64,000 nt of DNA from a virus (Duplodnaviria > Caudoviricetes). The notes under the pieces were generated by a model. It made no database searches, had not been told where the DNA came from, and saw only the letters and a program-made list of their open reading frames with translations. This document shows positions 1,109 through 64,000 of the stretch, piece by piece (position 1 is the first letter of the stretch; every line of letters begins with the position of its first letter). A program made the position numbers and the translations under genes. Location of the stretch: IMG/VR virus record IMGVR_UViG_3300032272_000007, positions 10,757 through 74,756 of that record; one strand, given 5' to 3'.

Positions 1109-1719
1109 GTGCTAATTTTTAGTTTACTAATTTGATTCAAAACTATATTCTTGTGGTATAATATCTCCTGAGCAGAGGGCTTTAAATACAATTCATCTGA
1201 TTCAAACGGAATCCCAAATAATTTACTGTGATCGCTTCTACGACCTAGCTCCTCTACAATCCAAATGGATCCAGCAGAGCAGCTTACAGTATGAATATCA
1301 CTGTCACTCAGCTCCACTATTCCACCAATTGGCAAGACGTAATCGCTACAATTAATATATGTGTCACACACATATTCAAGGCCTTTTCCCTCTTCCAGTA
1401 TTGAATAATAGTCGTATTCTGGCAGTAACACATTGCCTTGAAGTGGGGGGTACATCCTAGTGGCCATGTGATGATTGATAACACCACCAAGTGGTGTTAA
1501 TCGTATTGGATACTTATGGTCATGAAGTTGAATATCAAATGGTTTTATCTCATTTGCTGAGATAAAAACTCTAATGAATTCTCCAGATTCTTCACCGACT
1601 ACAATAAGAGAAAATAGCCCCTTGGCGTGGCAATTTTTAAGACTCCTCGCCAAACAGTCTCTATTTGGGGATTTAAGTTTGTTGGATACACAATCTAGGA
1701 TGTCTTTTAGCTTACTCAT
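1105..1719 (-). CDS. Putative cupin/double-stranded beta-helix metalloprotein
   Basis: HDH motif (QLHDHKY) plus distal IHTV, beta-rich pattern; ATGA-coupled to both neighbours. Confidence 0.45.
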   Translation of the reverse strand: MSKLKDILDCVSNKLKSPNRDCLARSLKNCHAKGLFSLIVVGEESGEFIRVFISANEIKPFDIQLHDHKYPIRLTPLGGVINHHMATRMYPPLQGNVLLPEYDYYSILEEGKGLEYVCDTYINCSDYVLPIGGIVELSDSDIHTVSCSAGSIWIVEELGRRSDHSKLFGIPFESDELYLKPSAQEILYHKNIVLNQISKLKIST

Positions 1720-2888
1720 GATGTTTGAAGTTTGATAATTTGATTCTTTTCAGCCACTAACCGCTCGTTTGAGACGTGGCCATAGTATTTTTCAGTAGTG
1801 CTAACGGATTCATGACCAAGGAATTGGGACACAGCTGTTAGACTGTGCCCCCTTTCCAGCATTAACACAGCAAAACTGTGACGCAGGACATGAGGAGTCA
1901 CCTTTCGGCCCACCAACTCACTAAGTGGTCCTTTACAGAAGGCGCTGAACCTAGCATATTCAGCCTCATGTTTGCTCACAATAATCTTCCCGTCTGGCTC
2001 GAGGAAATTTCCTACCGGTAACCAGTTATTGAATGTCTTCTTGAAATCCGCCGCTAAAATCAACTCAATGATTCTATTCAATTCAGGGTATACTATTACC
2101 CTCGCCTGTACCTGAGATTTATGCCTGTTGTACACTAGGAACTTGTTACCCTCCAGATCTATGGTAAACTCGGGCTCTGTGCAGCAGTCGGCAAATGAAT
2201 AGCCTGAGTAGGCTAAGAATAGGGATAGCAGGCCGTAGTGCTCATCGGCGTACTCCCAGAGCTTGGTAATTACTTTTGGATTGATAAATTCCATAATGTT
2301 CGATTTCTTCTTTACCTGGTAGATCTTCTTTGCTTTGAATGGGTTGAATCTAATACTGTCAGGCCACTCATCCAAAGGAAAATCTTCAATGACCGTTTCC
2401 ACTACCATTTTGATGAAGTTGATGTAAATGGAAATAGTATCGTTGGCATATCCTGATCTATTCAGCCATCCACGGTAACCCTTAGCTAATGATGTCGACA
2501 ACATGGCCAGAGGAATGTCTTCCTGCGCGCCTAGCCCACTCAAATACCTTTGAAAGGCACTCTGACAGTGGCGATATGTGGTCTTGGTATGATTAGACAG
2601 TCCTTTCAGTTCATCGGTTGTTCTCACGTAGTATTCACAGGCCTGGGAGACCGTGTATGGTGCGCCCGTCTTAATAGAGGAGGATTTCATGAGTGAGAAT
2701 GCCAACTCTGGTGATGATGGAGACCCTGTTTTAATGATCTCCTCCAGCTTGCGGGTATAGTCCTTAATTTCTTGGCTCCTCCTCCAGTCTCTTTTCTTAA
2801 CTATTCCAGTGGACTTATCCTTGGTGGATCCGCAGATGGTTAGTCTGCAGTAGATGTATTTCTCACGTCTGATGAAGAAGGTGATCAT
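1716..2888 (-). CDS. int: Tyrosine recombinase/integrase (Bacteroidota type: arm-binding, SAM-like and catalytic domains)
   Basis: HVLRHSFAVLML...LGHESVSTTEKYYGH (H-x-x-R, LGH, catalytic Y); box I reads SGYSFAD. Confidence 0.9.
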   Translation of the reverse strand: MITFFIRREKYIYCRLTICGSTKDKSTGIVKKRDWRRSQEIKDYTRKLEEIIKTGSPSSPELAFSLMKSSSIKTGAPYTVSQACEYYVRTTDELKGLSNHTKTTYRHCQSAFQRYLSGLGAQEDIPLAMLSTSLAKGYRGWLNRSGYANDTISIYINFIKMVVETVIEDFPLDEWPDSIRFNPFKAKKIYQVKKKSNIMEFINPKVITKLWEYADEHYGLLSLFLAYSGYSFADCCTEPEFTIDLEGNKFLVYNRHKSQVQARVIVYPELNRIIELILAADFKKTFNNWLPVGNFLEPDGKIIVSKHEAEYARFSAFCKGPLSELVGRKVTPHVLRHSFAVLMLERGHSLTAVSQFLGHESVSTTEKYYGHVSNERLVAEKNQIIKLQTS

Positions 2889-3226: not shown

Positions 3227-3440
3227 TTCCTTGTTTTATGTTGATTAATTCAATCACAGCACCCGCATCATACATTACTTCTTGATACATGCGCTCAGGG
3301 ATTACCTCCAGTGTGTTGCTTCTTGGTGCTCCTCCAACCTGAATAATTCTACAATTGGCCAATGTGGTGGCAACTTCCTCTTGACTAAGGCTGAATGTTG
3401 GGACAAATACGTACCTGAATTTTGGGGCTAGTGAGACCAT
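3219..3440 (-). CDS. Hypothetical protein, first gene of the int-ACP-RecT operon
   Basis: ORF with AACTTCAAACATT before the ATG, downstream of a TATATTTG promoter. Confidence 0.6.
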   Translation of the reverse strand: MVSLAPKFRYVFVPTFSLSQEEVATTLANCRIIQVGGAPRSNTLEVIPERMYQEVMYDAGAVIELINIKQGNE

Positions 3441-3467
3441 AATGTTTGAAGTTGATAGCTAAATTAT

Positions 3468-6620: not shown

Positions 6621-6623
6621 TGG

Positions 6624-6818: not shown

Positions 6819-6982
6819 TAGAATATTGTGAATTGTTCGTTAAACATGATGTCAGATGTGTGAATTGTTCGGTAGTGGCCATTTCCCACACGGCATATAG
6901 CCCAGTTATCATTCCATTTGTGTATGAGATGAAATAGCTTCGTTACTTTGTAGTTGCAGTAGTGTCTAGTCTTGTCCATGTT

Positions 6983-8571: not shown

Positions 8572-8572
8572 G

Positions 8573-9527: not shown

Positions 9528-9547
9528 GACTCCACTTAAGTGCTTTC

Positions 9548-9748
9548 TTAGCTCTCATGATTGCCCTCCTTTCCGAATAGTATTACTTGATGGACTGTAC
9601 CCTTGGCGAATAGCCCTGAATCTATTGTCTTGAGTTCTGATTTGTTTTTCCCTGTCTTGAGGCCATGAGGGCGCTCATTGTGGGATGTGACCAGAGCCCT
9701 ATCTTCGGCGCTCATCTTGCTAGTACTTGTTTTCTTGAATAGTTCCAT
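9548..9748 (-). CDS. Hypothetical early protein
   Basis: ORF preceded by two AACTTCAAAC boxes. Confidence 0.55.
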   Translation of the reverse strand: MELFKKTSTSKMSAEDRALVTSHNERPHGLKTGKNKSELKTIDSGLFAKGTVHQVILFGKEGNHES

Positions 9749-9785
9749 AATGTTTGAAGTTTAGTTTGAAGTTACGTAAAGTAAA

Positions 9786-10303: not shown

Positions 10304-10491
10304 ATTTCTGTGATGTAAAATTTTGTGACTGGCCACTGACTAGAATAATGATCAGCACTCCATATCCTCATCGCTCTGAGTAGTGCCTGCCACTTGGTTG
10401 GTGCCTCCACCTGCAATACGGTGGATCTACCCTCTGACTCAACCTTAGACTCTGACTTGAGCTGAACCGTGTACTTTTTGTTTGTTTCCAT
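10300..10491 (-). CDS. Hypothetical protein
   Basis: Start METNKKY; ATGA overlap with the next gene. Confidence 0.5.
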   Translation of the reverse strand: METNKKYTVQLKSESKVESEGRSTVLQVEAPTKWQALLRAMRIWSADHYSSQWPVTKFYITEI

Positions 10492-10591
10492 AGTGTTAAA
10501 TTTAACCATTGATCAGGTTGTGGGTGCTTGTTTGAATATAATGCGTTCGTCTTAGTTAAGCCCTCCCCCAGAGAGGAGGAGGGACAATGAA

Positions 10592-10762
10592 TTAATGATT
10601 GAATGCTGCGTAATTGGATTGTCGCTTCTCATACGAGCAATAGGGCTTACCTGGCTTTACCTTGCCAGTGTGCTTTGACCTGCTTGCTGTTGAGTAACCA
10701 GTCCTTGCACAGGATCCTAGAGTGATGATGGCTATCAAAGCCAAAAAGATTGATCTTTTCAT
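10592..10762 (-). CDS. Small lipoprotein (56 aa)
   Basis: Hand translation MKRSIFLALIAIITLGSCARTGY...; lipobox LGSC; preceded by the ACTTCAAAC box. Confidence 0.65.
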   Translation of the reverse strand: MKRSIFLALIAIITLGSCARTGYSTASRSKHTGKVKPGKPYCSYEKRQSNYAAFNH

Positions 10763-10786
10763 AATGTAACGTTTGAAGTTTGAAGT

Positions 10787-10815
10787 AAAAAAATGGTAGC
10801 CCTACTTAGGCTACC
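10787..10815 (-). terminator. Rho-independent terminator
   Basis: GGTAGCC/GGCTACC stem followed by a U-tract on the minus strand. Confidence 0.6.
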
Positions 10816-11012
10816 GATTGAATCTTGTTGTCGAAGAAGATAGGAACGTCAATTGCTCTGACGGCCTCATTAAAATCATCCTCAGCTTTCTGCCATTTCT
10901 CAGCATTAGCTTGAGAAGGATCTGTCATGAACTGTTGTTCGAGATCCTTCATGATTTGCTCCTTAATTTGGAGTTTGCCAGTGTTGGCTTCTATTTGAAT
11001 TACTGTGTCCAT
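10806..11012 (-). CDS. Hypothetical early protein
   Basis: Start MDTVIQ at 11012 after an ACTTCAAAC box. Confidence 0.55.
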   Translation of the reverse strand: MDTVIQIEANTGKLQIKEQIMKDLEQQFMTDPSQANAEKWQKAEDDFNEAVRAIDVPIFFDNKIQSVA

Positions 11013-11090
11013 AATACTGCGTTTTGTTTGAAGTTGATTGTAAGATACACAAACTTTACTAATAAGCAAATTAATGGTACTTTGAGCATA

Positions 11091-11122
11091 AAAAAAGGAC
11101 TCCCCACTTTTGGAGAGTCCCC
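11091..11122 (-). terminator. Rho-independent terminator
   Basis: GGACTC.CC/GGAGAGTCC stem with an A-run on the plus strand. Confidence 0.55.
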
Positions 11123-11177
11123 TTCATTAAGCACTAGCACCAGCCAGTCGGCTAGTTTCTTCTGAGAATGTATTGCA

Positions 11178-11630
11178 TTACAGTATCTTGTTTTCTTGTG
11201 AGTAGGAGAAGTAACCATCTCTAGTCAAAATTAAATGGTCAAGCAACTCTATGTCCAGCACTTTACCCGCATCTAGTATTTTTTGGGTCATCACATCATC
11301 TTGGTGACTGGATCTTAAATTGCCGCTCGGATGATTGTGCGCTAGAATTATATTGTGAGCATTCGACTTTAAAGCAGCCTGATAGATGATTTTAGCATCA
11401 ACAACCGCAGCTGACGTTCCACCCTCGCAAACCTTCACAACTCCCAGAACGTCATTAGATCGGTTCATGAGTAATAAGTAGACAACTTCCCTGTACTCCA
11501 TCTCCTGTTCGAAGAATGGTCGGAGTATTTTGACGGCTGATGAGCTATTTGTTATCCTAAGTCTGTCGGCGGCTTTAACCGTTGTTGAGTAGGTGACTTT
11601 CACCTCTGCAACCATTGATAAATCGGTCAT
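11178..11630 (-). CDS. radC: RadC-like JAB-domain protein (UPF0758)
   Basis: EVVYLLLMNRSN...GGTSAAVVD...ILAHNHPSG...D...LLDHLIL. Confidence 0.9.
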   Translation of the reverse strand: MTDLSMVAEVKVTYSTTVKAADRLRITNSSSAVKILRPFFEQEMEYREVVYLLLMNRSNDVLGVVKVCEGGTSAAVVDAKIIYQAALKSNAHNIILAHNHPSGNLRSSHQDDVMTQKILDAGKVLDIELLDHLILTRDGYFSYSQENKIL

Positions 11631-11890
11631 TCCGCCTGAGCTGATGGAACAACAGTGAATAGAAAGATGGACGGCTTATAGGGCTGGCCGTGTAGGTCGC
11701 TAACTCCTCTGAGTTGTGACGGCTGTACCTCAACCAGAACTGCCTTAGTTCCGTGTGATGAGAATTTGTTACACTCTCTTTTGGCATCACTGGTATTGAA
11801 TATTGCAGCGCTGGATGCAATGTGCACTTTGTAGTCATCCCCATTGTAGTGGATCGTTTCGGGTAAACTTGCTCGTTTGAAGGTTTTCAT
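11627..11890 (-). CDS. Hypothetical early protein
   Basis: ORF with ACTTCAAAC box. Confidence 0.55.
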   Translation of the reverse strand: MKTFKRASLPETIHYNGDDYKVHIASSAAIFNTSDAKRECNKFSSHGTKAVLVEVQPSQLRGVSDLHGQPYKPSIFLFTVVPSAQAE

Positions 11891-11977
11891 AATTTGCTAG
11901 TGTTTGAAGTTTGAAAAAAAGGGGTCTCAGTCACCGTCATGGCTTTGCCGTCGTGGTCGAGGCACCCCTAAAAGTCT

Positions 11978-12244
11978 TTAGATTAGTGCTTTTTGATCTG
12001 TTGAACAATAGAATAGGTGGAATTGGATATATCTGCACTTCTGGTTTATGATCATCATCCGAATAATGTTCTCTCGATTGAGATATTCCAGTTTTCTATC
12101 CGACCAGTAGAGCCGCATAAACTCTTTTTTGCCCTCTCCGTCCTTGAATTTGAAGTACTCCATATTATCTTCATCAGCTTCCAGTTTCTCAAAATGGTGC
12201 TTGTACATCCGCTTGACATCTCGGTTTAATTCTTTGGTAGTCAT
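11978..12244 (-). CDS. Hypothetical early protein
   Basis: ORF coupled to the upstream gene. Confidence 0.55.
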   Translation of the reverse strand: MTTKELNRDVKRMYKHHFEKLEADEDNMEYFKFKDGEGKKEFMRLYWSDRKLEYLNRENIIRMMIINQKCRYIQFHLFYCSTDQKALI

Positions 12245-12465
12245 ATCAAATCTCCGTTTTGGTCAAAACTACCCATAACCTCCGCCTGAGTGGAGGACAG
12301 GATGTTATAGGGATCGTGTAGAACTAGGGTGTTCTTGTGACTAAGCGAAGAGTTAGCTCTTAACAGAGTCTCGTTGCTAACGCCCATAGGACAGCCGATT
12401 GATATTAGATAGTCGATGCATTGACCGATTGTTGGGAATGATTCTAAATAGTGTATTCCTTTCAT
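12241..12465 (-). CDS. Hypothetical early protein
   Basis: ORF in the operon. Confidence 0.5.
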   Translation of the reverse strand: MKGIHYLESFPTIGQCIDYLISIGCPMGVSNETLLRANSSLSHKNTLVLHDPYNILSSTQAEVMGSFDQNGDLI

Positions 12466-12468
12466 AAT

Positions 12469-12669
12469 TTAGTTGTTTGAGGGTTTGAAATATTTGGCTG
12501 CGGAAAATTGCTTTGTAAACACCACCATAGAAGTAGAGCTATCTGGAAATGAATTGACCAATCGTCTCGCCTCATTTAATGTTAGGCCACGTTCAATAAC
12601 TTGCCGTCTGTCTGAGATCCGAAAGACTCGGACTACTTTATAGGTTCCTGTGTATGTTAAATCTTCCAT
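12469..12669 (-). CDS. Hypothetical early protein, first gene behind the promoter at 12697-12704
   Basis: ORF; TATCTTTG on the minus strand upstream. Confidence 0.6.
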   Translation of the reverse strand: MEDLTYTGTYKVVRVFRISDRRQVIERGLTLNEARRLVNSFPDSSTSMVVFTKQFSAAKYFKPSNN

Positions 12670-12829
12670 AATGCTGTGTTTAGTTTAAAGATACCCAAAG
12701 ATAACATTAGTTTACTTAAAGTCAAGTATTATCAAGTTTATTTTGATTATGTTGGTGAATTCGTCCTAATTGGCTATCATTGGAATTGGTTAGGTTAAAT
12801 AGATCGGCTTGATAAACCGATCGACATGG

Positions 12830-12862
12830 AGAGCTCATCACAAAATGGTGGGCTCTTTTTTT
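12830..12862 (+). terminator. Rho-independent terminator on the plus strand (no upstream CDS)
   Basis: AGAGCTCATCA-CAAAA-TGGTGGGCTCT followed by a T-run. Confidence 0.6.
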
Positions 12863-12997
12863 AAGACACTTTCAATGTAGCGCCATTGAGTATTGACGGT
12901 TATTTAGGTAGGTAGCGCCCTCGAAGCATCCTAAATCACCGTCCAATAAGAAGAGATTGCCAATTTTAAAGACTTCGCTACCTTGGACCCATCGGAT

Positions 12998-13522
12998 TCA
13001 TTTCGGTGGGTTTTTTCGATTTCGCTTCTTACGCTTCTTAGCCTGCATCTTTTCGAGCCTTTCACGTTCTGGTCGCCTAAGACCAGTGTCGAAATGAAGC
13101 AAGGAGAAAGCATAAGGAGACATAACAGGATTGTAGTTGCAAATTCTACTCTCAACTGCATTCTTCAAACATCGAACATAATAGCCTACAATGCTCTTCC
13201 CGCTACTCTGAATGCAGTATTTGTCTATCTCATAGGCTTTCTGATTCAAAAAAAAAGCAACATTCCCCTTCGCAAGTAATCGCTTCGACGCGATCCTAGA
13301 AATATCAACGCTGTAACCAGTATATTCAGTAACCAGATAAACAGTAAAATAACCCCCATAGTCTTCACAAATAGTGTTTATAGCCAAAAGACATGTCAAA
13401 TCCGAAACAGTGAAACCATCATATCTCTTCATTGTCTCTGTTAATGCCAAACGATGCAAACTACCTATTTCAGCAATCTGAGATGTCCTGGTCTTTCTCC
13501 ATTCAGGTTTCTTATTCTCCAT
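12998..13522 (-). CDS. Putative MarR-like winged-helix DNA-binding protein
   Basis: FTVSDLTCLLAI...FTVYLVTEYTGYS...SKRLLAKG...YCIQSSGKSIV pattern; basic C-tail. Confidence 0.45.
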   Translation of the reverse strand: MENKKPEWRKTRTSQIAEIGSLHRLALTETMKRYDGFTVSDLTCLLAINTICEDYGGYFTVYLVTEYTGYSVDISRIASKRLLAKGNVAFFLNQKAYEIDKYCIQSSGKSIVGYYVRCLKNAVESRICNYNPVMSPYAFSLLHFDTGLRRPERERLEKMQAKKRKKRNRKNPPK

Positions 13523-14244
13523 GTGTTTCTTTCTTGTCTGGTCTAATCAATGGGTTTTCGTTACTACAAACCTACACACACACGCCCAGACACGCATTAC
13601 AGGCCTCATTTGCAGCTCAATTGGATTGATCATAGAAATGGTGAGAAGATCCTCGGGGATTGACGCAAGGGAATTGCACTGATCTAAGTTTCATGTACCA
13701 TCGAGTGTACCATGATGGTCAATTGTAGCGATTAGAGGCTGTTTAGGGCTATTCTAGGTTAACTTTCTGTTAATGGAGGCTATCAATGCACCCATACAGG
13801 CCCATTATAATGGCTGGAATCGGTGACCCCCTACCCCCTAAATGGATCCGTTTTCCCTTTGGGGAATTGGCAGGGGGATGGTATGTAGAAGCGACAAGTG
13901 ATCATTTACATTCTCAAAATTTTTTTTCAATATTTTTTTTGGGAGATTTGGGTTTATGTACTACTGTATACTGAAAGATGAGAATGGTCTGGAGACTAAG
14001 ATTACCGGGAGGGATGATCGTCCTGATTTGGTTCCTAGTTATTATGCTGGTGTCCTGGTGAATAGGACTTGTGAGAAATAGGGTCGAATTCGAATTGATG
14101 TTGCGAAAGGGGGTGATGTCGAAGTGTGTGTTTGCCAAATAGGTCGAATTGTTTATCCTTTGGTTTCTTGGCTGGGGTCCTCTCGCTTTGCTCGGGAAGA
14201 CGAGCGGGACGTGGATTTGTCGGGTCGAAGTGTATCTTTGAGAA

Positions 14245-14460
14245 ATGATGAACTTTGTAGTTGTTGGATCTAATGCCAGGCCTAGCGAATCCCGGCTATC
14301 GCTGGAGGAGCTGCTTACGCTGCCAACGAAAACCATCAAGTTGCGTCGAAGGAAGCTCAATCGAAAGGCTCTCATGGTGAAATCGTGGGAAAACACCTCC
14401 CCGTACTGGCTCAAGTACGAAAGCGCACGTTTGCGCCTCTATGGTAGATACGAAAATTAG
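14245..14460 (+). CDS. Small basic hypothetical protein (possibly leaderless)
   Basis: TATCTTTG ends 4 nt before the ATG. Confidence 0.4.
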   Translation: MMNFVVVGSNARPSESRLSLEELLTLPTKTIKLRRRKLNRKALMVKSWENTSPYWLKYESARLRLYGRYEN

Positions 14461-14606
14461 CGCCGAAATGAATACCTTTGAGAAATATAAGGTGATCAGG
14501 GAGAAATGTTGCGCTTTGTGGAGGTGCACCGAAGCAAAGAATTGCGGTATAACAAAAAGCGACAGGAGACCGACTCTCCCTGATCATCTTATTAACTTTG
14601 AAATTT

Positions 14607-14915
14607 TTATTCTTCATAAATACTCTTGATTTCGGTGACGAACGGCTCTTCTTTCAATTCACCATCCTCATTAACATGCTTTGGCCTTTCACCTGGCGCG
14701 AACGATACATGACCCCTGAACTCGAGAGCTCCGTACTCATACACTGAATTGAAGCCGAAAAACGTACATACCCTCTTCGCGTGGGTTTCATAGTCCTCAT
14801 TCTTCTTGAAAAAGCCGATTTTGATCATCTCTTCAATGTCGAAGTGCTCTTCCATAAAGTCCTTGAGGAGGGTTTCTTTGTCAGTCATTTCAGGTAGTAA
14901 AAAATCTGATACCAC
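14607..14915 (-). CDS. Hypothetical protein
   Basis: Natural-looking acidic ORF. Confidence 0.55.
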   Translation of the reverse strand: MVSDFLLPEMTDKETLLKDFMEEHFDIEEMIKIGFFKKNEDYETHAKRVCTFFGFNSVYEYGALEFRGHVSFAPGERPKHVNEDGELKEEPFVTEIKSIYEE

Positions 14916-15173
14916 ATTAGATTCTGGTCGAATGTGATTGATACTATGTCAATATCGGCCATCTTCTCATCGTTGACAAAATTCAGCACATCAATGGCCT
15001 CAAATGCGCGTTGGTCGTATAGTCGTCTCCTTTTCATGATTCACCTTCTTTAATTGACTCCAGTCCGCTTGAAATTCTTTGTAAAACTGTTTTTGCCACA
15101 TCTTCGAGACCGCTGGGGTAAGAGCTCTGGACACCGAAGCCCAGATCTCTCATAGTATCAATATTGATTTTTT

Positions 15174-15356
15174 TCATTTTCCCGTCATTTTCTTCTTGAA
15201 TTCCATCAGCTTGTCAACAGCATCCAGCTCCAGGCTTACTACTGGAGGGTTGTTGTGGTCATTTACCATTAATTCAATCGAAAACCCAGTAAAATGGGCG
15301 TATGCTCCGTCTCCAAGATGGACGGAGTTGGTTTCGTCTCTCATTCTTCGAACCAA
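15174..15356 (-). CDS. Hypothetical protein
   Basis: ORF with VHLGDGAYAHF motif. Confidence 0.5.
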   Translation of the reverse strand: MVRRMRDETNSVHLGDGAYAHFTGFSIELMVNDHNNPPVVSLELDAVDKLMEFKKKMTGK

Positions 15357-15790
15357 GATACGTTATCAATAAATTCAACCGAACATCCTCCTGAAATACA
15401 ATCAAGATCGATTGTGGCTATCTCCGTATAACCATCATTGGATCTTATGTAGGCATAAATGATAAGTTTCCCTGAATCGATCCCGTCAATATCAGCTGTT
15501 ATGCTCGTGGATCCATCGGGTAGGATTCTTCCAGAAAGGGTTACATCACCGATTTCGTCAGGGGTATTCAATGCATCTGAAAATACTACTGCAGAAAACT
15601 GATTGCTGTACCTTTCTGATATATTGATCAGTCCAATACCGATCGCGGAATCAGAAGGTCCGGAATCTGGGGTGATCAACGCAATGTTGTATCCATAGAT
15701 AGGACCAGGTAACTCAGGCCCATTGTCACAAGAAAAAAGAGTTGTGGCTAATAAAGCCAGTAGAAGTACTGTTGTTTTGAAAGATTTCAT
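15341..15790 (-). CDS. Lipoprotein
   Basis: MKSFKTTVLLLALLATTLFSC lipobox; start at 15790. Confidence 0.75.
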   Translation of the reverse strand: MKSFKTTVLLLALLATTLFSCDNGPELPGPIYGYNIALITPDSGPSDSAIGIGLINISERYSNQFSAVVFSDALNTPDEIGDVTLSGRILPDGSTSITADIDGIDSGKLIIYAYIRSNDGYTEIATIDLDCISGGCSVEFIDNVSWFEE

Positions 15791-15841
15791 AATTTTATGT
15801 TTAAAGTTTATGAGGTTAAATATAGTTTGGTTTATTGATAT

Positions 15842-15857
15842 AATCAAATTATATTTG
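15842..15857 (+). promoter_or_regulatory. Promoter (-7 element TATATTTG) for the tRNA-Met/ncRNA transcript
   Basis: TATATTTG at 15850-15857; identical 16-mer at 20368-20383. Confidence 0.6.
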
Positions 15858-15873
15858 ATTTAAGTAAGTATAT

Positions 15874-15946
15874 AGCGCTGTAGAGCAGATGGTAGCTCGC
15901 TAGGCTCATAACCTAGAGGTCGCCGGTTCGAGTCCGGCTGGCGCTA
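15874..15946 (+). tRNA. trnM: tRNA-Met (CAT), initiator-like; CCA not encoded
   Basis: Cloverleaf AGCGCTG/TGGCGCT, D-stem GAGC/GCTC, anticodon stem CTAGG/CCTAG with loop CTCATAA, T-arm GCCGG-TTCGAGT-CCGGC. Confidence 0.93.
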
Positions 15947-15949
15947 CAT

Positions 15950-16236
15950 AAACCAGAGAAGGGGGATGTAAGACGTGCACAGCATCCCCCGCAGAAATCA
16001 AAGGCGGAACGAACGCCAATGGGACAGCGGACATTGAATAACCATTGGAACTGAGATTTCCTAGCCACCGAAAGGTGTTTAAGCCGACTGAATCAAATCA
16101 ATTAGATGATATGCCCCTATCCGCTGGGGGGCTTTGTTGAGAGATTCGAAGACAACCATTTGTAAGACAGGCCAGACGTAGAGCTGGTATCTCGATTAAC
16201 AATAGAAAAGGGGCAGTATATCTGCCCCTTATTTCT
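15950..16236 (+). ncRNA. Candidate structured non-coding RNA downstream of tRNA-Met
   Basis: No ORF; several GC-rich stems, a CACC-GAAA-GGTG tetraloop hairpin, potential loop-loop pairing, ends in a terminator. Confidence 0.5.
16208..16236. terminator. Probably bidirectional terminator
   Basis: AAGGGGCAG-TATAT-CTGCCCCTT between convergent transcripts. Confidence 0.7.
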
Positions 16237-16283
16237 TCCCAAACTGGGTATTTACTTTCCGAACGACCTTTATTTTTTCATAG

Positions 16284-16643
16284 CTATTTCTGGTATGTTC
16301 CTTCTACATCTCGGCTTTTCCGATCAATCTGGCGCTGCAGTAGCCATTGTTGCGCCTCCTGGAGCTTAGTGATCACCAATGCACCTTCACGGCTAGGCAC
16401 TAGTCCGTTTTTGTATTGAAGGTCATGGATCATTACAGCAAGTAGGTGCTCGTGTAGCGTTCCTTCACGTTTTTCTACCTCCTCCTCATTTACTTTGGAT
16501 CCACGGACGAAATTTAGCCGTTGTTGCGCCGCTGGATCTTCCACATATTCAAGGCCTTTTCCATCCACTACTCTGTAGACTGGAAGTAAGTAAGACGTTC
16601 CTTCTTCGAGAATTTCGAAGTCATTTTTCAAATCGATTTCCAT
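16284..16643 (-). CDS. tad1: Tad1-like (Thoeris anti-defence 1) nucleotide-sponge protein
   Basis: LNFVRG...GTLHEHLLAVMIHDL...SREGALVITKLQEAQQWLLQRQIDRKSRDVEGTYQK matches the Tad1 C-terminal hairpin pattern as I recall it. Confidence 0.7.
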   Translation of the reverse strand: MEIDLKNDFEILEEGTSYLLPVYRVVDGKGLEYVEDPAAQQRLNFVRGSKVNEEEVEKREGTLHEHLLAVMIHDLQYKNGLVPSREGALVITKLQEAQQWLLQRQIDRKSRDVEGTYQK

Positions 16644-16748
16644 TGTATATAATATTTAATTGTTAAAAATTCAATCTATAAAGCCGGATCCCTATTGCAG
16701 CAACTCCAACGGTTGCGGCTACTGTATTTTTTAGAAAGTCGCGTCTTT

Positions 16749-16931
16749 TCATATCCCAGTCTTTTGTTCGTACCGTGTAATCAGCACTAAAATGAAAGAG
16801 TGGTAGTTCTTTGCTATCACGGGATTTCCTGTTAAGATGTATTCTAGCGGGCTCAGAACCATTAAGATGAGAAAAATGACAAATGCCACGATTAATAACA
16901 GAATGCCGATGATTCTAAATAGTATTTTCAT
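16749..16931 (-). CDS. Small membrane protein
   Basis: Long N-terminal hydrophobic helix. Confidence 0.55.
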   Translation of the reverse strand: MKILFRIIGILLLIVAFVIFLILMVLSPLEYILTGNPVIAKNYHSFILVLITRYEQKTGI

Positions 16932-17125
16932 TCTTCCAGTAACAGTTTTGCTGCTTTTTCAAAGGTTTCTCCAGTGAATTTTTCATCTCCAGTGGTCTCA
17001 AGTAGTTCGAATGCCTGCGGATTTTGGTCTAAAATATCCCTTTTCAGAAGTTGGACCAACTCATCATGATCACCTTGAGAATTCGCTATTAACCATTGAT
17101 GGTAAGCTGTCTTTTCTTTTTCCAT
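16928..17125 (-). CDS. Hypothetical protein
   Basis: ORF with ATGA coupling. Confidence 0.55.
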   Translation of the reverse strand: MEKEKTAYHQWLIANSQGDHDELVQLLKRDILDQNPQAFELLETTGDEKFTGETFEKAAKLLLEE

Positions 17126-17483
17126 TACTTATTTGGGTTATAGCCACATTCTCCACAATCACCCCCTTGGTAGTAGGGGTTTCCGCAGCAGTGGCAAAAG
17201 TCTGATTTTTTCATTCTGATTTGTAGTTAATGCTCTCCTGAGAGCTTTCTAGTAGGTCGAATACCTTGAAAATGGTTTCTCCAGCGAATCCCCTCTCAAA
17301 TTCAAATACTGCAGTCTGAATCCTGGCGTACTGAAACGTCTTTCGGAAGAATGGTCCTTTGCGTTACTCATGTTTTACGTTTACCGTTGGAAATACAACA
17401 AATTCAGCATTCAATTTTTTCACCTCTTCACGAAGCTGGAGGAGCTCCTGGTAATCCTCCAGTGGTATCTTTGCGTGGAACAT

Positions 17484-17771
17484 CTACATTGGCAAGTTGA
17501 AGTTCTCCATAATTCGTTCAATTTGAGCTTGTAAGTAGTGGATCTCGGATTCTAGTTCCTCTATAGCTGCAATATGCCTCGGAAATTGGCTGTTGTTATC
17601 TGTTGAATCTGGGGTGGGTTCTTTCTGAATAGCATTATCAAAAATCTCATTGGTTAAATTGTGTAAGTTTTGATTAACATTACTGATTCTATCCCGACAG
17701 CTAATAACTTTTTCAGTCTGCTCTACAATAGAGGCTAGTTTTGGTGATTTTGCATCAATTAAATCCTTCAT
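17484..17771 (-). CDS. Hypothetical coiled-coil protein
   Basis: ORF directly downstream of tRNA-Cys. Confidence 0.55.
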   Translation of the reverse strand: MKDLIDAKSPKLASIVEQTEKVISCRDRISNVNQNLHNLTNEIFDNAIQKEPTPDSTDNNSQFPRHIAAIEELESEIHYLQAQIERIMENFNLPM

Positions 17772-17793
17772 TTTTATAAATTTAGAGTGTTAG

Positions 17794-17866
17794 AGACGAT
17801 AACAGGGCTCGAACCTGTGATCAATGTTTTGCAGACATTCGCCTTGACCAACTTGGCTATATCGTC
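17794..17866 (-). tRNA. trnC: tRNA-Cys (GCA); CCA not encoded
   Basis: GACGATA/TATCGTC acceptor, AATGT-CTGCAAA-ACATT anticodon arm, ACAGG-TTCGAGC-CCTGT T-arm. Confidence 0.93.
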
Positions 17867-17909
17867 TAAAAGGGAAGAGCTCACTACACTCTTCCCACAG
17901 TTATGCTGA

Positions 17910-18575
17910 CTAATCAGCAGAAAGTGATTTCACTACAGCTATGAATAGATCATCTTTGTAGCGTTGTGATTCAGGGAGATCGGCGTAAGGAACGATGCAC
18001 GGGTGCAATTTCTTCTCAGGATCTTTCTCCTCACCGTATTTCCAACCTTCATCTACCTTATCCTTCATCCAGTTGTTGTGAAGTGAATCAGGCCCAGCTT
18101 TTGGGTTCTCCAAACGGAAAATTACACCCTTAACAGCGCTCTCTTTTTGCCAATCTGGTGCCTTTTCCCAAGTTAGCTGAGAATTGTCACCGATCGATTG
18201 GCAATAAGTTCTGTTGACTTCGTGGCAGGTTTCGGCGATCTTAGCAATGAAAGCGGCTTTTTTAGCCGCCAGGTGTTCTTTATCATCAGCTTTGCCCTTC
18301 TTTTCATCTTTATCGGCTGTAACTTTCGTATTACCAGCATCAAAAACATCTCCAGGAGACCATGACTGGTAACCATCTTCATAAACCACAAAGTATCCTC
18401 CAGCTATTGGATTATGCTTTTTGACATATAAATGAGAAACTGCGAACTTTTTACCCTTTGAGGGAGTGATAATTGCAGAACCGCCGGGTTTTAGCTTAAC
18501 GGATTTGATTTTACAAGCACGAACCACCTTGTGGCTTCTGTACTCCTGTAATTTTGAAACATCTAATGGATCCAT
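17910..18575 (-). CDS. Two-domain protein: conserved phage N-terminal domain plus C-terminal RyR (ryanodine receptor repeat) domain
   Basis: N-term YRSHKVVRA...GGYFVVYEDGYQSWSPGDVF; C-term HNNWMKDKVDEGWKYGEEKDPEKKLHPCIVPYADLPESQRYKD is the RyR signature. Confidence 0.75.
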   Translation of the reverse strand: MDPLDVSKLQEYRSHKVVRACKIKSVKLKPGGSAIITPSKGKKFAVSHLYVKKHNPIAGGYFVVYEDGYQSWSPGDVFDAGNTKVTADKDEKKGKADDKEHLAAKKAAFIAKIAETCHEVNRTYCQSIGDNSQLTWEKAPDWQKESAVKGVIFRLENPKAGPDSLHNNWMKDKVDEGWKYGEEKDPEKKLHPCIVPYADLPESQRYKDDLFIAVVKSLSAD

Positions 18576-18743
18576 ATAATTTTAATTTTTGATTAATTCT
18601 TTGCAAGGTAAATTCTTTTTTATTTCCAGCTCCTTCTGCCCCACTGGCCATATTTTGCAGATACACTCCCTTTTAGGGTCTCTCTTGCATAGTGGGGCGT
18701 GTGGGCAGAAAAACTTTACCATAACTGTTTCACGTGAAACACT

Positions 18744-18968
18744 TTACACTTTCTGAGGACCATGTGCCATACTACCATCTAATCTACTGAATGGCTGATT
18801 CTCCTTTATCGGAGGTAAGGACATACACTTACGAAGCACATTCATTCCCTCCCTGATTTCTATCTCGTTCTTTTTTAGCTTCTTACGCATATAAGGGGTG
18901 GTCTGCACCCGTATTTCATACTGAACTAGGCTTAATTTCTCTTCAAGAATTTCAATTGCTGCTTTCAT
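18744..18968 (-). CDS. Hypothetical protein, first gene of the leftward operon
   Basis: Start MKAAIE behind the promoter at 18990-18997. Confidence 0.5.
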   Translation of the reverse strand: MKAAIEILEEKLSLVQYEIRVQTTPYMRKKLKKNEIEIREGMNVLRKCMSLPPIKENQPFSRLDGSMAHGPQKV

Positions 18969-18989
18969 AAGGACTGAATCATTTAAAAT

Positions 18990-19048
18990 CAAATATAGTT
19001 TGATGATGTAGATAAAAACAAGAGATTGTCAAATTATTTTTAATTTAG
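18990..19048. promoter_or_regulatory. Divergent promoters at the early/late strand switch
   Basis: TATATTTG (minus, 18990-18997) and TAATTTAG (plus, 19041-19048). Confidence 0.55.
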
Positions 19049-19052
19049 CTGC

Positions 19053-19874
19053 ATGAAGTTCATCTATGACTATGCGGTCGTTAAATTCGACAAACTAATA
19101 CGGAATGAATCCGAAGTATCTGGAGCAAACGGACAAAAAATACTTCTAGCAATGGCTAAGGAGATGGAGCGCTATGTGCACAATGAGGGAACGGTCGTAA
19201 GCGTTCCAGATAAACTATCTGATAGTAAAGTCTTTGCTTTCAACAGGATGGGGCCTCCTTTATACTATCGATCCAGCCCACAGGAGGTAACATGGCTTGA
19301 TGTTGTTCCAATGTCCATTAAGGCTGGGGATAAGGTGTATTGCCATCATAATGCAGTAATGAATGCCCTAAAAGACTCCGAAGATGTAATACTCAAAGAG
19401 GAGTACAACAAAGAGCGGAAGGAAACAACTGTTTGGATCAAAGTGCTAATTACTGATATTTTCTGTGCGGAGCGGAAAGGAAAACTTTTCCCTAACGCTA
19501 CTTGGACATTGGTTAAGCCTGATATGGAAACATGGGAGGATATATTAGTTCCCATTCCTGAAATAGACCCACTAACTGGTCAGCAGAAGGTGGAACTAAC
19601 CAAAAAAATGGATAAAGCTGGGATCATGCAGACTACTCCGGTACCAAAATGGTTACCAAAGGAGAAGTGGATACAAACGAAACAGGCACCAGAAGCAAAA
19701 TTTCTTAGAGGGTTCATTGAAGCTATTGGAGATCCGTTGATTGGAGATATTAAAGACCTTGAAAAAGGAGATCACATCATTTTTAGAAATTTCGTTGATT
19801 TTGAGGTTAGCATTGGTGGTGTTAAATATTATTTGATGAAACAGATGAATATTAGAGGGGTTATTGAAAAATAA
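19053..19874 (+). CDS. GroES-like (co-chaperonin-related) phage protein
   Basis: EGTVVSVP...IKAGDKVYCHHNAV and a second GFIEAIG...LEKGDHIIF GroES-like segment. Confidence 0.55.
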   Translation: MKFIYDYAVVKFDKLIRNESEVSGANGQKILLAMAKEMERYVHNEGTVVSVPDKLSDSKVFAFNRMGPPLYYRSSPQEVTWLDVVPMSIKAGDKVYCHHNAVMNALKDSEDVILKEEYNKERKETTVWIKVLITDIFCAERKGKLFPNATWTLVKPDMETWEDILVPIPEIDPLTGQQKVELTKKMDKAGIMQTTPVPKWLPKEKWIQTKQAPEAKFLRGFIEAIGDPLIGDIKDLEKGDHIIFRNFVDFEVSIGGVKYYLMKQMNIRGVIEK

Positions 19875-19888
19875 TCTACCTTTGGATT

Positions 19889-19970
19889 TCGCCTCTCAAG
19901 CCTTCACTGGCTGAATCATAATGTGAGGAGTGTTTGAAGTAAAACCCTTGGATCCATTCAGGGGTTTTTT
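19889..19970 (+). ncRNA. Candidate trans-acting sRNA antisense to early-gene start regions
   Basis: TACCTTTG at 19877-19884, terminator at 19941-19970, contains CATAAT and TGTTTGAAGT. Confidence 0.5.
19941..19970 (+). terminator. Rho-independent terminator
   Basis: AAAACCCTTG-GATCCATT-CAGGGGTTTT followed by further Ts. Confidence 0.7.
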
Positions 19971-20033
19971 TGTACCTTAGCACTGGTGGTTTATTTTTTC
20001 AAGGCTCAGTATGAGTTTTTAAGTATGAGCGTC

Positions 20034-20066
20034 AAAACCTCTGGGATTTTCTCAGAGGTTTTATTT
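20034..20066 (+). terminator. Rho-independent terminator
   Basis: AAAACCTCTGGG-ATTTT-CTCAGAGGTTTT. Confidence 0.65.
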
Positions 20067-20197
20067 TCGAGAGGATCAGGATGTTGAGATCAAGCATTCG
20101 TGGGAGTGGTTGAAGGCCACAGCTGGGCAATTCTCTTTGCAAGATCATCCAGCCGTTCTGAAAAAGCCCACAGTTGAATTATGCCCTCTCTGCAAGG

Positions 20198-20234
20198 AAG
20201 TCCCAGCGCTACTATACTGGGCTTTCTTGTTTTT
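20198..20234 (+). terminator. Rho-independent terminator
   Basis: AAGTCCCAG...CTGGGCTTT followed by CTTGTTTTT. Confidence 0.55.
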
Positions 20235-20237
20235 CTA

Positions 20238-20299
20238 ATCCCCTTTGTATCCCCTCAGTATGGTCATACTAAGGGGATGTATATCCCCTTTGCATCCCC
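20238..20299. repeat. Direct repeat ATCCCCTTTGYATCCCC flanking a near-perfect inverted repeat
   Basis: 17-mers at 20238-20254 and 20283-20299; palindrome at 20249-20278. Confidence 0.75.
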
Positions 20300-20388
20300 G
20301 CTTGTATGGTATTGATATACTATAACAATACACTATTAATACAATATCTACTAGTAGCAGTAAGGAGAATCAAATTATATTTGTTTCT

Positions 20389-20673
20389 ATGGAAACAAAT
20401 ATAAAACCCAGATTCGATTGCGCTCTTGTTGAATTACTACCTGATAAAGATCATTTCAGTAAAGATGCGGACATTATTAAACCAGACAATGCTAAAAACT
20501 CTGGTAAGATGCTTAGAGGTAAAGTTCTAAGATTTGGATCTAGCTGCGAGGGATTGACGGAAGGAATGATCGTTGGTTTCCGGAATGGAGCTGGAGAGAA
20601 AGACATCGATGCTGAAAATGCCAATTTAATGTTGATACGCGATAAAGACCTAATGATCACCTATGACGACTGA
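20389..20673 (+). CDS. groES: Co-chaperonin GroES (Cpn10)
   Basis: IKPRFDCALVE...IIKPDNAK...GKVLRFG...LTEGMIVGF...LMLIRDKDL. Confidence 0.8.
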   Translation: METNIKPRFDCALVELLPDKDHFSKDADIIKPDNAKNSGKMLRGKVLRFGSSCEGLTEGMIVGFRNGAGEKDIDAENANLMLIRDKDLMITYDD

Positions 20674-63261: not shown

Positions 63262-63671
63262 TACCGCAAAAGTTTATCCATTTGGTGATTAGAGTACCCT
63301 GAATGATGAACAAATACATAGGGCTCATTCATGTTGTGGGCTTGGTATTTCAAATACTCATGAGCAGCTTCACTAGTAAGAAATACTGCTTTATACTCAT
63401 CAATATAGAATTGGGTGACTTCCTCTGGTCCTTCCATGTCCTCGTCTGATAACTTAAATTCAGGCTCATCTTCATAACTATCAATATATCCGCGCTCAGG
63501 CTCTTTCCCTTTGTGGTTGGTGGCTCCTAAGTATTCAGAGTGACCCTCACACGCCATATCCCGAAGAGAGTATACAAAGTAAATTGGATTGGTTGTGGCA
63601 AGGTTTTTACCGTCCTTGATCTCCTGTTCCCTGACAGGAAGAATCTCATTTTTAAGGTATTCTAAGTCCAT
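63261..63671 (-). CDS. Ead/Ea22-like protein
   Basis: NLATTNPIYFV...VFLTSEAAHEYLKYQAHN..EPYVFV...N.QM. Confidence 0.55.
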   Translation of the reverse strand: MDLEYLKNEILPVREQEIKDGKNLATTNPIYFVYSLRDMACEGHSEYLGATNHKGKEPERGYIDSYEDEPEFKLSDEDMEGPEEVTQFYIDEYKAVFLTSEAAHEYLKYQAHNMNEPYVFVHHSGYSNHQMDKLLR

Positions 63672-64000
63672 TTGTTTGAAGTTTGATTTAAAAATTCATT
63701 TATAGCAGTGGGATGTTCTGATCTCCAGTCAAGGTCTAAGTACCCCTCTTTCTCAAGGAAATGCCCAAATTCATCCAGTAATGTGAGATTATCTCCATTG
63801 GCTTTCAGATACTTAGCCATCAGATCACTGTAGTCCTTCCTCTTCTTATTATTTTTATCCCGTAGGTTTTTCAGCTGGAGTTTTTCTCCCGGGTCTAGCT
63901 TACCAACCTTGAAGCTGAGTAGCTCCTTGGTTAGCTCATTGACGCGATCCTGTAGGAGTTTATTTTCCTTTAGGATCACACTATTATGCAGCTTGGCCAA
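63662..64000 (-). CDS. Hypothetical coiled-coil protein (5' end outside the window)
   Basis: Open frame to the window edge. Confidence 0.55.
   Translation of the reverse strand: MAKLHNSVILKENKLLQDRVNELTKELLSFKVGKLDPGEKLQLKNLRDKNNKKRKDYSDLMAKYLKANGDNLTLLDEFGHFLEKEGYLDLDWRSEHPTAINEFLNQTSNKWT

What the first reader, a model, noticed from the sequence alone, without database searches (positions are those of the whole stretch)
19877..19970. Candidate multi-target sRNA antisense to the shared start region of early genes (phage 'early-off' switch)
Seen: a consensus promoter TACCTTTG (19877-19884) and a U-tailed terminator (19941-19970) bracket an ~80-nt plus-strand unit with no ORF. Just before the terminator it reads CAUAAU-GUGAGGAG-UGUUUGAAGU (19917-19940), the reverse complement of the bipartite ACUUCAAAC(A)...AUUAUG motif that covers the start codons of minus-strand genes at 1719, 3440, 9748, 10762, 11012, 11890 and 63671. 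For 11890 the match is 12+6 nt; for 3440 and 9748 the 15-nt target pairs fully with one bulge. It is the only copy not in front of a real ORF (the minus strand gives just MIQPVKA) and the only one with antisense transcription signals. Known: trans-acting sRNAs repress translation by pairing over start codons using a seed next to the terminator. Inference: one late-strand sRNA silences a whole early regulon, including the integrase operon. Alternative: an emptied terminator-box cassette on the minus strand.
Basis: partly seen in the sequence, partly recalled or inferred. Interest (0 to 1): 0.85.

Follow-up and report, generated by a model that had tools for sequence, protein, structure and literature searches.

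The report
Phage small RNA mirroring gene starts
An uncultured ~75-kb phage of Bacteroidota carries a conserved ~83-base non-coding RNA gene whose exposed stretch mirrors a 9-base tag just before the start codons of 7-10 of its own genes, so one RNA probably damps their translation together, although no transcript has been seen.

Summary
ACTTCAAAC occurs 10 times in the window, always on the minus strand (0.68 expected). Every copy lies 0-13 nt before a start codon. The copy at 19932-19940 is followed only by a 7-codon ORF.

On the plus strand that copy sits between TACCTTTG (19877-19884) and a strong U-tailed hairpin (19941-19972). The promoter motif alone is at chance frequency in this genome. 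Relatives decide the matter. Seven related phage contigs keep the same unit at the same place, just 3' of a core GroES-like gene: a TAnnTTTG box, then 45-90 nt, then a mostly unpaired stretch abutting a plus-strand-only terminator.

In the closest relative the seed block is 30/33 identical, while the 5' part and the terminator sequence have diverged. In four genomes the unit's sequence matches that phage's own start-region tags, and the tags differ between phages.

Best reading (about 0.6): a trans-acting anti-start-region sRNA. It works like the P1/P7 c4 RNA but is not a member of that family.

The 'late' timing, the 'early-off switch' and 'whole regulon' claims are unsupported. No RNA data exist. 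The main rival is a same-sense repeated gene-start cassette.

This scan has noted similar units in other Bacteroidota phages.

The parts
19053..19874 (+). GroES-like gene (273 aa, C-terminal Cpn10 domain). It is a core gene of the clade, and the unit lies directly 3' of it.
   Evidence: Pfam Cpn10, E 4.7e-07. Orthologues sit in the same place in L120, L204-L207, L269 and L271.
19877..19884 (+). Bacteroidota-type -7 promoter element TACCTTTG (TAnnTTTG).
   Evidence: A TAnnTTTG box is present 50-95 nt before the terminator stem in all 7 orthologous units. Only 4 of 120 other terminator-like sites have one. The consensus is from PMC7366714.
19890..19972 (+). Predicted small RNA of about 83 nt. 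The start is inferred as about 6 nt after the -7 box; the end is the U-run. It has no ORF.
   Evidence: Fold. Rfam gives no match at E<=1. The 5' end is an inference.
19909..19941 (+). Conserved seed block GGCTGAATCATAATGTGAGGAGTGTTTGAAGTA. It holds the anti-start CAUAAU and the anti-tag GUUUGAAGU.
   Evidence: 30 of 33 bases are identical to L271, while the 24 nt before it (5 identical) and the terminator stem have diverged.
19941..19972 (+). Intrinsic terminator: a 12-bp hairpin plus U7.
   Evidence: The structure is kept with a different sequence in every relative.
63669..63682 (-). Tag ACTTCAAAC plus AAATG. Start of a 136-aa gene, internal to an operon.
15788..15807 (-). Near-cognate tag ACTTTAAAC plus ATTATG, behind a TATATTTA promoter-like box. 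The C-to-U change keeps a G.U pair.
12667..12691 (-). Degenerate tag TCTTTAAAC ... ATTATG behind the promoter box TATCTTTG.
12463..12491 (-). Near-cognate tag ATTTCAAAC ... ATTATG. The C-to-U change keeps a G.U pair.
11888..11910 (-). Tag ACTTCAAACACT plus ATTATG (12+6 nt match), directly after a hairpin and T-run. Start of an 87-aa gene upstream of RadC.
11010..11034 (-). Tag plus ATTATG. Start of a 68-aa gene.
10760..10786 (-). Tandem overlapping tags (TTTTACTTCAAACTTCAAAC) plus ATTATG after a terminator. Start of a 56-aa lipoprotein-like gene. It is the best-ranked start region.
9746..9772 (-). Two tags plus ATTATG. Start of a 66-aa gene.
3438..3452 (-). Tag fused to ATTATG, 15 nt downstream of the promoter box TATATTTG. 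It is the first gene of the operon that holds the integrase.
1717..1731 (-). Tag plus ATCATG inside the 3' end of the integrase gene. Start of a 204-aa gene.
20034..20070 (+). Second hairpin with an AUUUU tail, 60 nt downstream. It is either a tandem terminator or part of a second conserved non-coding element.

Best explanation
The element is most likely a phage-encoded, trans-acting base-pairing small RNA of about 83 nt. It would be transcribed on the plus strand from its own host-type promoter (-7 box TACCTTTG), possibly also as the 3' end of the GroES-like mRNA, and it would end at the intrinsic terminator.

The stretch just 5' of the terminator is CAUAAU-GUGAGGAGU-GUUUGAAGU. It pairs with a tag (ACUUCAAAC) and the AUUAUG start context of 7-10 minus-strand genes. 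Most of these head small transcription units, including the operon that holds the integrase. Pairing over positions -24 to +3 would block 30S binding and lower translation of those genes as a set.

Shown here:
- the sequence anatomy;
- strand-exclusive enrichment of the tag at start codons;
- conservation of the unit's position, promoter box, seed and terminator in seven relatives;
- phage-specific matching of unit and tags.

Inferred: that the RNA is made, that it pairs, that the effect is repression, and when it acts.
For: 1. The tag has 10 copies, all on the minus strand (0.68 expected). The bipartite tag+ATTATG has 6 copies (0 expected). Tag position follows the start codon, not promoters. 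Two copies lie inside upstream coding sequence (1731, 63682).

2. Orthologous units lie 3' of the GroES-like gene in L120, L204, L205, L206, L207, L269/L211 and L271. The TerL proteins on these contigs are 40-61% identical to the window's, where one was recovered; L271 was found through its GroES-like gene, which is 74% identical. Each unit has TAnnTTTG, then 45-90 nt, then a G/U/A-rich stretch, then a hairpin and a U6-8 tail.

3. Of 127 terminator-like sites in 7 genomes, 11 have a -7 box 20-110 nt upstream. Seven of those 11 are these units.

4. Window against L271: the seed block is 30/33 identical, the 5' part 5/24, and the terminator keeps its structure with a new sequence.

5. No ORF is conserved on either strand. 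The minus strand gives MIQPVKA here, MTAL in L120 and no ATG in L206.

6. In the six relatives the hairpin has a U-tail only on the plus side.

7. Matching is phage-specific:
- L204 CAUAAUAUUGAAAAGUUUGUUA matches four minus-strand sites over 12-13 nt. All four sit at an ATG, and three of those ATGs open ORFs of 40 aa or more.
- L205 AAAAAUGUUUGUU matches 12 nt and 14 nt at two starts.
- L206 AAAAGUUUGAU matches 11, 10 (integrase) and 9 nt.
- At k>=12 the genome-by-seed matrix has start-region hits only on the diagonal, apart from L207's near-identical seed. 0 of 300 shuffles reach the observed start-region counts in the window, L204 and L205.

8. Among 106 start regions of the genome, tagged ones take 5 of the 6 best duplex energies.

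9. The two single-substitution tags found at gene starts are both C-to-U, which keeps a G.U pair.

10. The layout of 5' hairpin, single-stranded linker and terminator recurs. The seed is mostly unpaired in L204 (0.88), L205 (0.81), L207 (0.62) and L120 (0.56).

11. [quoted passage not shown]
Against: - No RNA evidence exists. The only public run holding this DNA is a DNA run.
- TAnnTTTG is at chance frequency in the genome and there is no -33 element.
- In the window's own predicted fold the seed is only 36% unpaired.
- The contiguous core pairing is 9-13 nt, which is short for an AT-rich host without Hfq.
- All tag copies, including the one in the unit, are in the same orientation. Concerted evolution of a same-sense repeat would therefore also produce the matching seen between phages.
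- The same early region has at least five other repeated gene-start junction families (J1-J5), and no orphan copy of them was looked for, so repeats at gene starts may arise without an antisense partner.
- Support is weaker in L206 and L269/L211, where the latter has one 11-nt match.
- More distant relatives (L212, L217, L218, L220, L270) lack the unit.
Confidence: 0.6

Rival explanations
1. The tag belongs to a same-sense repeated gene-start cassette. It would be a duplicated translation-initiation or recombination junction, like the other junction families of this early region. The copy at 19932-19940 would be an orphan junction, and the plus-strand RNA would be just the 3'UTR and terminator of the GroES-like gene. 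The antisense complementarity would then be a by-product with no regulatory role.
For: All 10 copies have one orientation. Copies at 11910 and 10786 also follow a hairpin and T-run, and share 12-13 nt plus ATTATGA with the orphan. Five further repeated start-spanning junction families (J1-J5) exist in the same arm. Gene conversion among copies would mimic co-variation. An HNH gene sits at this spot in three relatives, which fits an insertion-prone site.
Against: An empty junction has no reason to be kept at one position in eight diverged phages. It also has no reason to keep a plus-strand -7 box, found at 7 of 7 orthologous units against 4 of 120 other terminator-like sites, or a plus-only U-tail. 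The seed is the best-conserved part of the intergenic unit between the window and L271. No ORF remnant follows the tag in any relative.
Confidence: 0.2
2. The tag is the binding site of a protein. This could be a phage translational repressor in the manner of T4 RegA, or an operator. It co-evolves with that protein. The copy in the unit would be a further site, such as a decoy or an autoregulatory site, and RNA-RNA pairing would play no part.
For: Tags are tied to start codons, as RegA sites are. Tags differ between phages as specificity determinants would. For the analogous start-associated sequences of Cluster K mycobacteriophages, the authors left open whether the ligand is RNA or protein (PMC3203893).
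Against: No candidate protein was identified. The minus strand of the unit has no evident promoter in the window, L206 or L207, so an RNA-level site there would not be made. This reading does not explain the conserved plus-strand promoter and terminator, or the extension of the match to the start codon (CAUAAU / AUUAUG).
Confidence: 0.1
3. The RNA is real, but its main targets are host mRNAs, with the phage tags being secondary. Alternatively, it activates rather than represses.
For: Published phage sRNAs often act on host genes (PreS, DicF, VpdS). An unrelated viral contig, L114, carries the same 9-mer in a similar arrangement.
Against: The host is unknown. The tag+ATTATG pattern is rare in five Bacteroidota genomes that carry related terminases: 6 hits against 2 for the reversed control. 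Pairing that covers the start codon argues for repression.
Confidence: 0.07

Closest known systems
c4 antisense RNA of phages P1/P7 (immI; Rfam C4) and the CI RNA of satellite phage P4 (my own knowledge; Rfam scan)
   Same: It is a small phage RNA acting in trans on several repeated complementary sites in the phage's own genome. It covers a ribosome-binding region, and RNA and targets change together between related phages.
   Different: There is no sequence or structure match to any Rfam family. It has its own promoter and terminator, on the strand opposite its targets, rather than being processed from the leader of the operon it controls. It has 7-10 targets dispersed over more than 25 kb in separate operons, instead of two sites in one leader. 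The host lineage does not use Shine-Dalgarno pairing.
Start-associated sequences (SAS) of Cluster K mycobacteriophages (Pope et al. 2011, PMC3203893)
   Same: It is a short asymmetric tag a few bases upstream of the start codons of many non-structural genes, in one orientation, on unrelated gene families, and absent from structural genes.
   Different: SAS contain an SD-like AGGAG, and no antisense partner RNA has been described for them. The authors left the ligand open (RNA or protein). Here a candidate RNA ligand is encoded next door and the tag has no SD character.
GibS and other intergenic sRNAs of Bacteroides thetaiotaomicron (Ryan et al. 2020, PMC7366714)
   Same: It has a Bacteroidota -7 promoter and an intrinsic terminator, and an AT-rich single-stranded seed pairing across start codons in a host without Hfq or ProQ.
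   Different: GibS is chromosomal with a 5' seed and two validated targets. This unit is phage-borne with a terminator-proximal seed, and its targets share a repeated tag.
Promoter-early stem-loop (PeSL) repeats at gene boundaries of T4-type phages (my own knowledge)
   Same: These are repeated regulatory cassettes at the boundaries of unrelated early genes, some right after a hairpin.
   Different: PeSLs are promoter plus stem-loop recombination modules. Here the conserved part is the tag plus start codon, and one copy is embedded in an oppositely transcribed unit.

Membership tests
Canonical trans-acting intergenic sRNA | Own promoter / transcription start | tested here: inconclusive
   The -7 box is conserved in 8 of 8 units, against 4 of 120 control terminator-like sites. 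There is no -33 element and no RNA data. 3'UTR origin cannot be excluded.
Canonical trans-acting intergenic sRNA | Rho-independent terminator at the 3' end | tested here: met
   A 12-bp hairpin plus U7. The structure is kept with a changed sequence in all relatives.
Canonical trans-acting intergenic sRNA | No conserved ORF | tested here: met
   No shared ORF on either strand across the units.
Canonical trans-acting intergenic sRNA | Conserved, accessible seed | tested here: met
   30/33 identity to L271 amid diverged flanks. The seed is 0.56-0.88 unpaired in four relatives but only 0.36 in the window.
Canonical trans-acting intergenic sRNA | Complementarity to target start regions that changes together with them | tested here: met
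   Caveat: same-sense concerted evolution would give the same pattern.
Canonical trans-acting intergenic sRNA | The transcript exists and regulates its targets | not testable with these tools
   No RNA run holds the sequence.
P1/P7 c4 RNA family (Rfam C4) | Sequence/structure match to the family model | tested here: not met
   The Rfam scan of 18900-20500 at E<=1 gave no match.
P1/P7 c4 RNA family (Rfam C4) | Processed from the leader of the operon it represses | tested here: not met
   The unit lies on the strand opposite its targets, with its own promoter box and terminator.
Start-associated sequences (Cluster K type) | Asymmetric tag within a few bases of the start codons of many non-structural genes | tested here: met
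   This is an analogy only; there is no sequence relation (SAS is GGGATAGGAGCCC).
Repeated recombination junction (PeSL-like) | The same junction flanks different gene cassettes in related genomes | not tested
   Only the presence of other junction families was verified.

The most novel reading that the evidence does not exclude
Phages of Bacteroidota, whose hosts do not use Shine-Dalgarno pairing, may commonly encode a 'master' small RNA that reads a short phage-specific tag at the start codons of a chosen gene set. RNA and tags would co-evolve like an immunity specificity. One RNA would then set the translation of many dispersed operons, including the integration module, at once. This locus would be one member of a widespread, undescribed class.
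Probability: 0.4. Interest if true: 0.8.

Novelty: new variant of a known kind. Interest (0 to 1): 0.66.

Why it matters
If real, one ~83-nt RNA would coordinate the translation of up to ten dispersed phage genes through a repeated start-codon tag. Phage antisense RNAs described so far act on one or two sites. No phage sRNA has been described for Bacteroidota; a 2025 review of phage-derived sRNAs never mentions the phylum.

It would also supply an RNA ligand for the unexplained class of 'start-associated sequences'. The naturally differing RNA/tag pairs of the relatives could serve as orthogonal translational switches for Bacteroidota genetics.

Tried and rejected
- RNA evidence: the look-up of sequencing runs listed only one DNA run (sediment metagenome) and no RNA holder.
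- Close relatives were absent from INPHARED and IMG/VR by DNA, by the GroES-like protein, by TerL and by seed patterns.
- The scan of IMG/VR for tag+ATTATG gave about 119 single chance hits. Only L114 was of interest.
- The metagenome contigs and genome-contig scans with a TerL alignment returned mostly relatives of 25-36% identity, too distant for this element.
- The unrestricted sliding-window duplex-energy scan of the whole genome did not separate tagged sites cleanly from long imperfect duplexes. Ranking restricted to start regions did.
- A crude screen of all fetched loci for terminator-proximal stretches complementary to start regions found only the known units plus about 3 hits, at the level of the reversed-seed control.
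- MAFFT could not align the units, so no covariance model was built.
- The idea that the tag is a crAss-type virion RNA polymerase promoter was dropped. The tag follows start codons, one copy lies downstream of a host-type promoter, and no early motif is known for phi14:2.
- The idea that the non-coding stretch 19976-20388 is a decayed copy of the relatives' HNH gene was rejected.
- The genome search could not reach the Logan/ENA contigs.

Full report
**Context**

The window is bases 10757-74756 of a 74,756-bp single-contig virus record whose ends overlap. It encodes a large terminase, a portal, a 3641-aa virion-type protein and a tyrosine integrase. Its terminase is only about 24% identical to those of Cellulophaga phages phi38:1 and phi40:1. 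It is 36% identical to a copy inside a 275-kb Chryseolinea contig. The phage is therefore an uncultured, probably temperate phage of Bacteroidota.

Minus-strand (non-structural) genes fill window 1-19000 and 60800-64000. Plus-strand genes run from 19053 to 60821.

**Check of the observation**

- ACTTCAAAC occurs 10 times, all on the minus strand. Dinucleotide shuffles give a mean of 0.68 and a maximum of 3.
- ACTTCAAAC-N0-14-ATTATG occurs 6 times, against none in 100 shuffles.
- Each copy ends 0-13 nt before an ATG that opens a real ORF. The exception is the copy at 19932-19940, which is followed only by MIQPVKA.
- Two copies (1731, 63682) lie inside the coding end of the upstream gene.
- One copy (3452) lies 15 nt downstream of a host-type promoter box.
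- Three copies (19940, 11910, 10786) follow a hairpin.

The tag is therefore tied to the start codon, not to promoters or terminators. That points to a role in translation.

I found three further near-cognate tags at gene starts. Those at 15807 and 12491 are single C-to-U changes that keep a G.U pair with the proposed RNA. The third is at 12691.

One weakness: TAnnTTTG occurs 65 times in the genome, about what composition predicts, and mostly inside genes. No -33 element is present. In this genome alone, the simplest reading of 19875-19972 is the 3'UTR and terminator of the GroES-like gene 19053-19874.

**Relatives**

No close relative is in INPHARED or IMG/VR. Protein searches and contig look-ups gave eight syntenic contigs:

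| Contig | TerL identity to window |
|---|---|
| L120 | 61% |
| L204 | 50% |
| L206 | 49% |
| L207 | 49% |
| L205 | 47% |
| L269/L211 | 40% |
| L271 | found through its GroES-like gene (74% identical) |

All have the ~270-aa GroES-like gene at the divergence point. In all of them a small unit follows on the plus strand. It consists of a TAnnTTTG box, 45-90 nt with a variable 5' hairpin, a G/U/A-rich stretch, and then a strong hairpin with a U6-8 tail.

The box and the stretch before the terminator in each unit:

| Contig | -7 box | Stretch before the terminator |
|---|---|---|
| window | TACCTTTG | GUGUUUGAAGUA |
| L271 | TAATTTTG | UUGUUUGAAGUA |
| L120 | TAGTTTTG | GAAGUUUUGAUGU |
| L204 | TATATTTG | GAAAAGUUUGUUA |
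| L205 | TATCTTTG | AAAAUGUUUGUUAA |
| L206 | TATATTTG | AAAAGUUUGAUAUA |
| L207 | TATATTTG | AAAAUGUUUGUUAA |
| L269 | TATCTTTG | (a different stretch) |

The box travels with the unit rather than with the stop codon. It is 80 nt after the stop in L204, and behind an extra ORF in L205.

Among 127 terminator-like sites in seven of these genomes, 11 have a -7 box 20-110 nt upstream. Seven of those 11 are these units.

In the six relatives the hairpin has a U-run only on the plus side, and the minus-strand mini-ORF is not conserved.

The window-L271 alignment shows the pattern expected of a base-pairing RNA:
- the -7 box is kept;
- the next 24 nt are 5/24 identical;
- the block GGCTGAATCATAATGTGAG...TGTTTGAAGTA is 30/33 identical;
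- the terminator stem has a different sequence but still folds.

More distant relatives (L212, L217, L218, L220, L270) lack the unit.

**Do unit and tags change together?**

I extended three relatives leftwards and searched each genome with the reverse complement of its own unit.

- L204 (target form TAACAAACTTTTCAATATTATG) has four minus-strand sites with 12-13 nt perfect matches. All four sit at an ATG; three of those ATGs open ORFs of 40 aa or more, and two matches include the ATG itself.
- L205 (AACAAACATTTTTA) has a 12-nt match behind a promoter box and before an ATG. It also has a 14-nt match before a small ORF.
- L206 (ATCAAACTTTT) has an 11-nt match behind a promoter box, a 10-nt match in front of the integrase gene and a 9-nt match at the first early gene.
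- L271 keeps both the window's seed and an ACTTCAAAC...ATTATG tag.

At 12 nt or more, the genome-by-seed matrix has start-region hits only on the diagonal. The one exception is L207's seed, which is nearly the same as L205's. None of 300 shuffled seeds reaches the observed start-region counts in the window, L204 or L205. Off-diagonal long matches lie inside coding sequence.

Within the window's genome, tagged start regions take five of the six best duplex energies among 106 start regions.

**What this does not settle**

All tag copies, including the one in the unit, have the same orientation. Concerted evolution of a same-sense repeat would therefore give the same matrix.

Earlier notes of this scan pointed to other repeated start-spanning junction families (J1-J5) in the same arm. 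I verified their sequences. Whether any of them has an oppositely transcribed orphan copy was not checked, so repeated gene starts may well arise here without any antisense partner.

The features that single out the ACTTCAAAC family are the conserved orphan copy, its plus-strand promoter box, its plus-only terminator and its seed-like conservation. A protein ligand for the tag cannot be excluded either.

There is no expression evidence: only one DNA run holds the sequence. In the window's own predicted fold the seed is only 36% unpaired, against 56-88% in four relatives. Rfam has no match.

**Mechanism and comparison**

The best-supported reading, at about 0.6, is a trans-acting anti-start-region sRNA. 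It would block ribosome loading on 7-10 tagged genes: small proteins of unknown function, a lipoprotein-like peptide, the gene ahead of RadC, the first gene of the integrase operon and the gene after int.

Timing is unknown. The unit follows a gene with its own near-consensus promoter at the divergent region, and terminators separate it from the late operon. 'Late' and 'early-off' are therefore unsupported.

It works like the c4 RNA of P1/P7 and the CI RNA of P4, but it fails membership:
- it matches no Rfam model;
- it is not processed from the target leader;
- its targets are dispersed.

The tags resemble the start-associated sequences of Cluster K mycobacteriophages, whose ligand was left open by the authors (PMC3203893). 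Chromosomal Bacteroides sRNAs such as GibS show that pairing over start codons works in this phylum without Hfq (PMC7366714). A 2025 review of phage sRNAs has no Bacteroidota case (PMC12197685).

This scan has noted similar promoter-seed-terminator units that mirror start-codon tags in other Bacteroidota phages. Those notes are unverified and were not used as evidence.

**Verdict**

This is a new variant of a known kind, and a strong candidate that needs a northern blot and compensatory-mutation reporters.

Noticed in passing
window 19976-20235: This non-coding block, just after the unit, is about 85-90% identical to L271, while its neighbours have diverged. It includes a second hairpin (20034-20070). 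Indels break every reading frame between the two phages, so it is probably a second conserved RNA or DNA element.
   Followed up: partly
window 20240-20403: Repeats ATCCCCTTTGTATCCCC and ATCCCCTTTGCATCCCC lie here, together with a perfect 28-bp palindrome TATATTTGTTTCTATGGAAACAAATATA that puts a -7 box on both strands right at the first late gene. Relatives have their own repeated motifs at the same place (L207 AGCCCTTAC..., L120 CCCCC/GGGGG). These may be regulator or packaging sites.
   Followed up: no
L114 7780-8020 (IMGVR_UViG_3300002448_000116): This viral contig is unrelated by tblastx. It has TATATTTG + ACTTCAAAC + ATTATG at one gene start. About 100 nt away on the other strand it has TATCTTTG ... 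GAGGAUUAGUUUGAAGU plus a U-tailed hairpin. This may be an independent instance of the same arrangement, or chance.
   Followed up: partly
L120 5442-5822, L204 7785-8174, L205 7610-8020 (minus strand): Three relatives carry an HNH-endonuclease-like gene (CxxC...DH...CxxC) between the unit and the late operon. The window, L206 and L207 lack it and show no remnant of it.
   Followed up: yes
window 20376-20391, 18980-18997, 19042-19055: Several genes have the -7 promoter box only 4-7 nt before the ATG, so their mRNAs would be leaderless or nearly so.
   Followed up: no
genome 2988-17894 (window up to 7138): The junction families J1-J5 reported by earlier notes are real. They are 18-31-bp repeats spanning the start codons of unrelated minus-strand genes.
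   Followed up: partly
window 59433-59457: The plus-strand start region AAUCAAACUAUCUUUACAUUAUG of gene 59455-60087 ranks third for pairing with the proposed RNA (ACAUUAUG plus UCAAAC). It is a possible target on the structural strand.
   Followed up: no
L270 4625-6170: In this relative (TerL 42% identical) the GroES-like gene is followed by about 1.5 kb of G+C-richer non-coding sequence. It contains the repeated motif CUAAGACAUU and a tRNA-like stretch near 6050-6125.
   Followed up: no
L269 2047-3422: The L211/L269 phage has strong SD-like GGAGGGG sequences in front of several early genes despite Bacteroidota-type -7 boxes. Its unit has a different seed (CAUAAUAAUAGUGGGAAUACAAAG).
   Followed up: no
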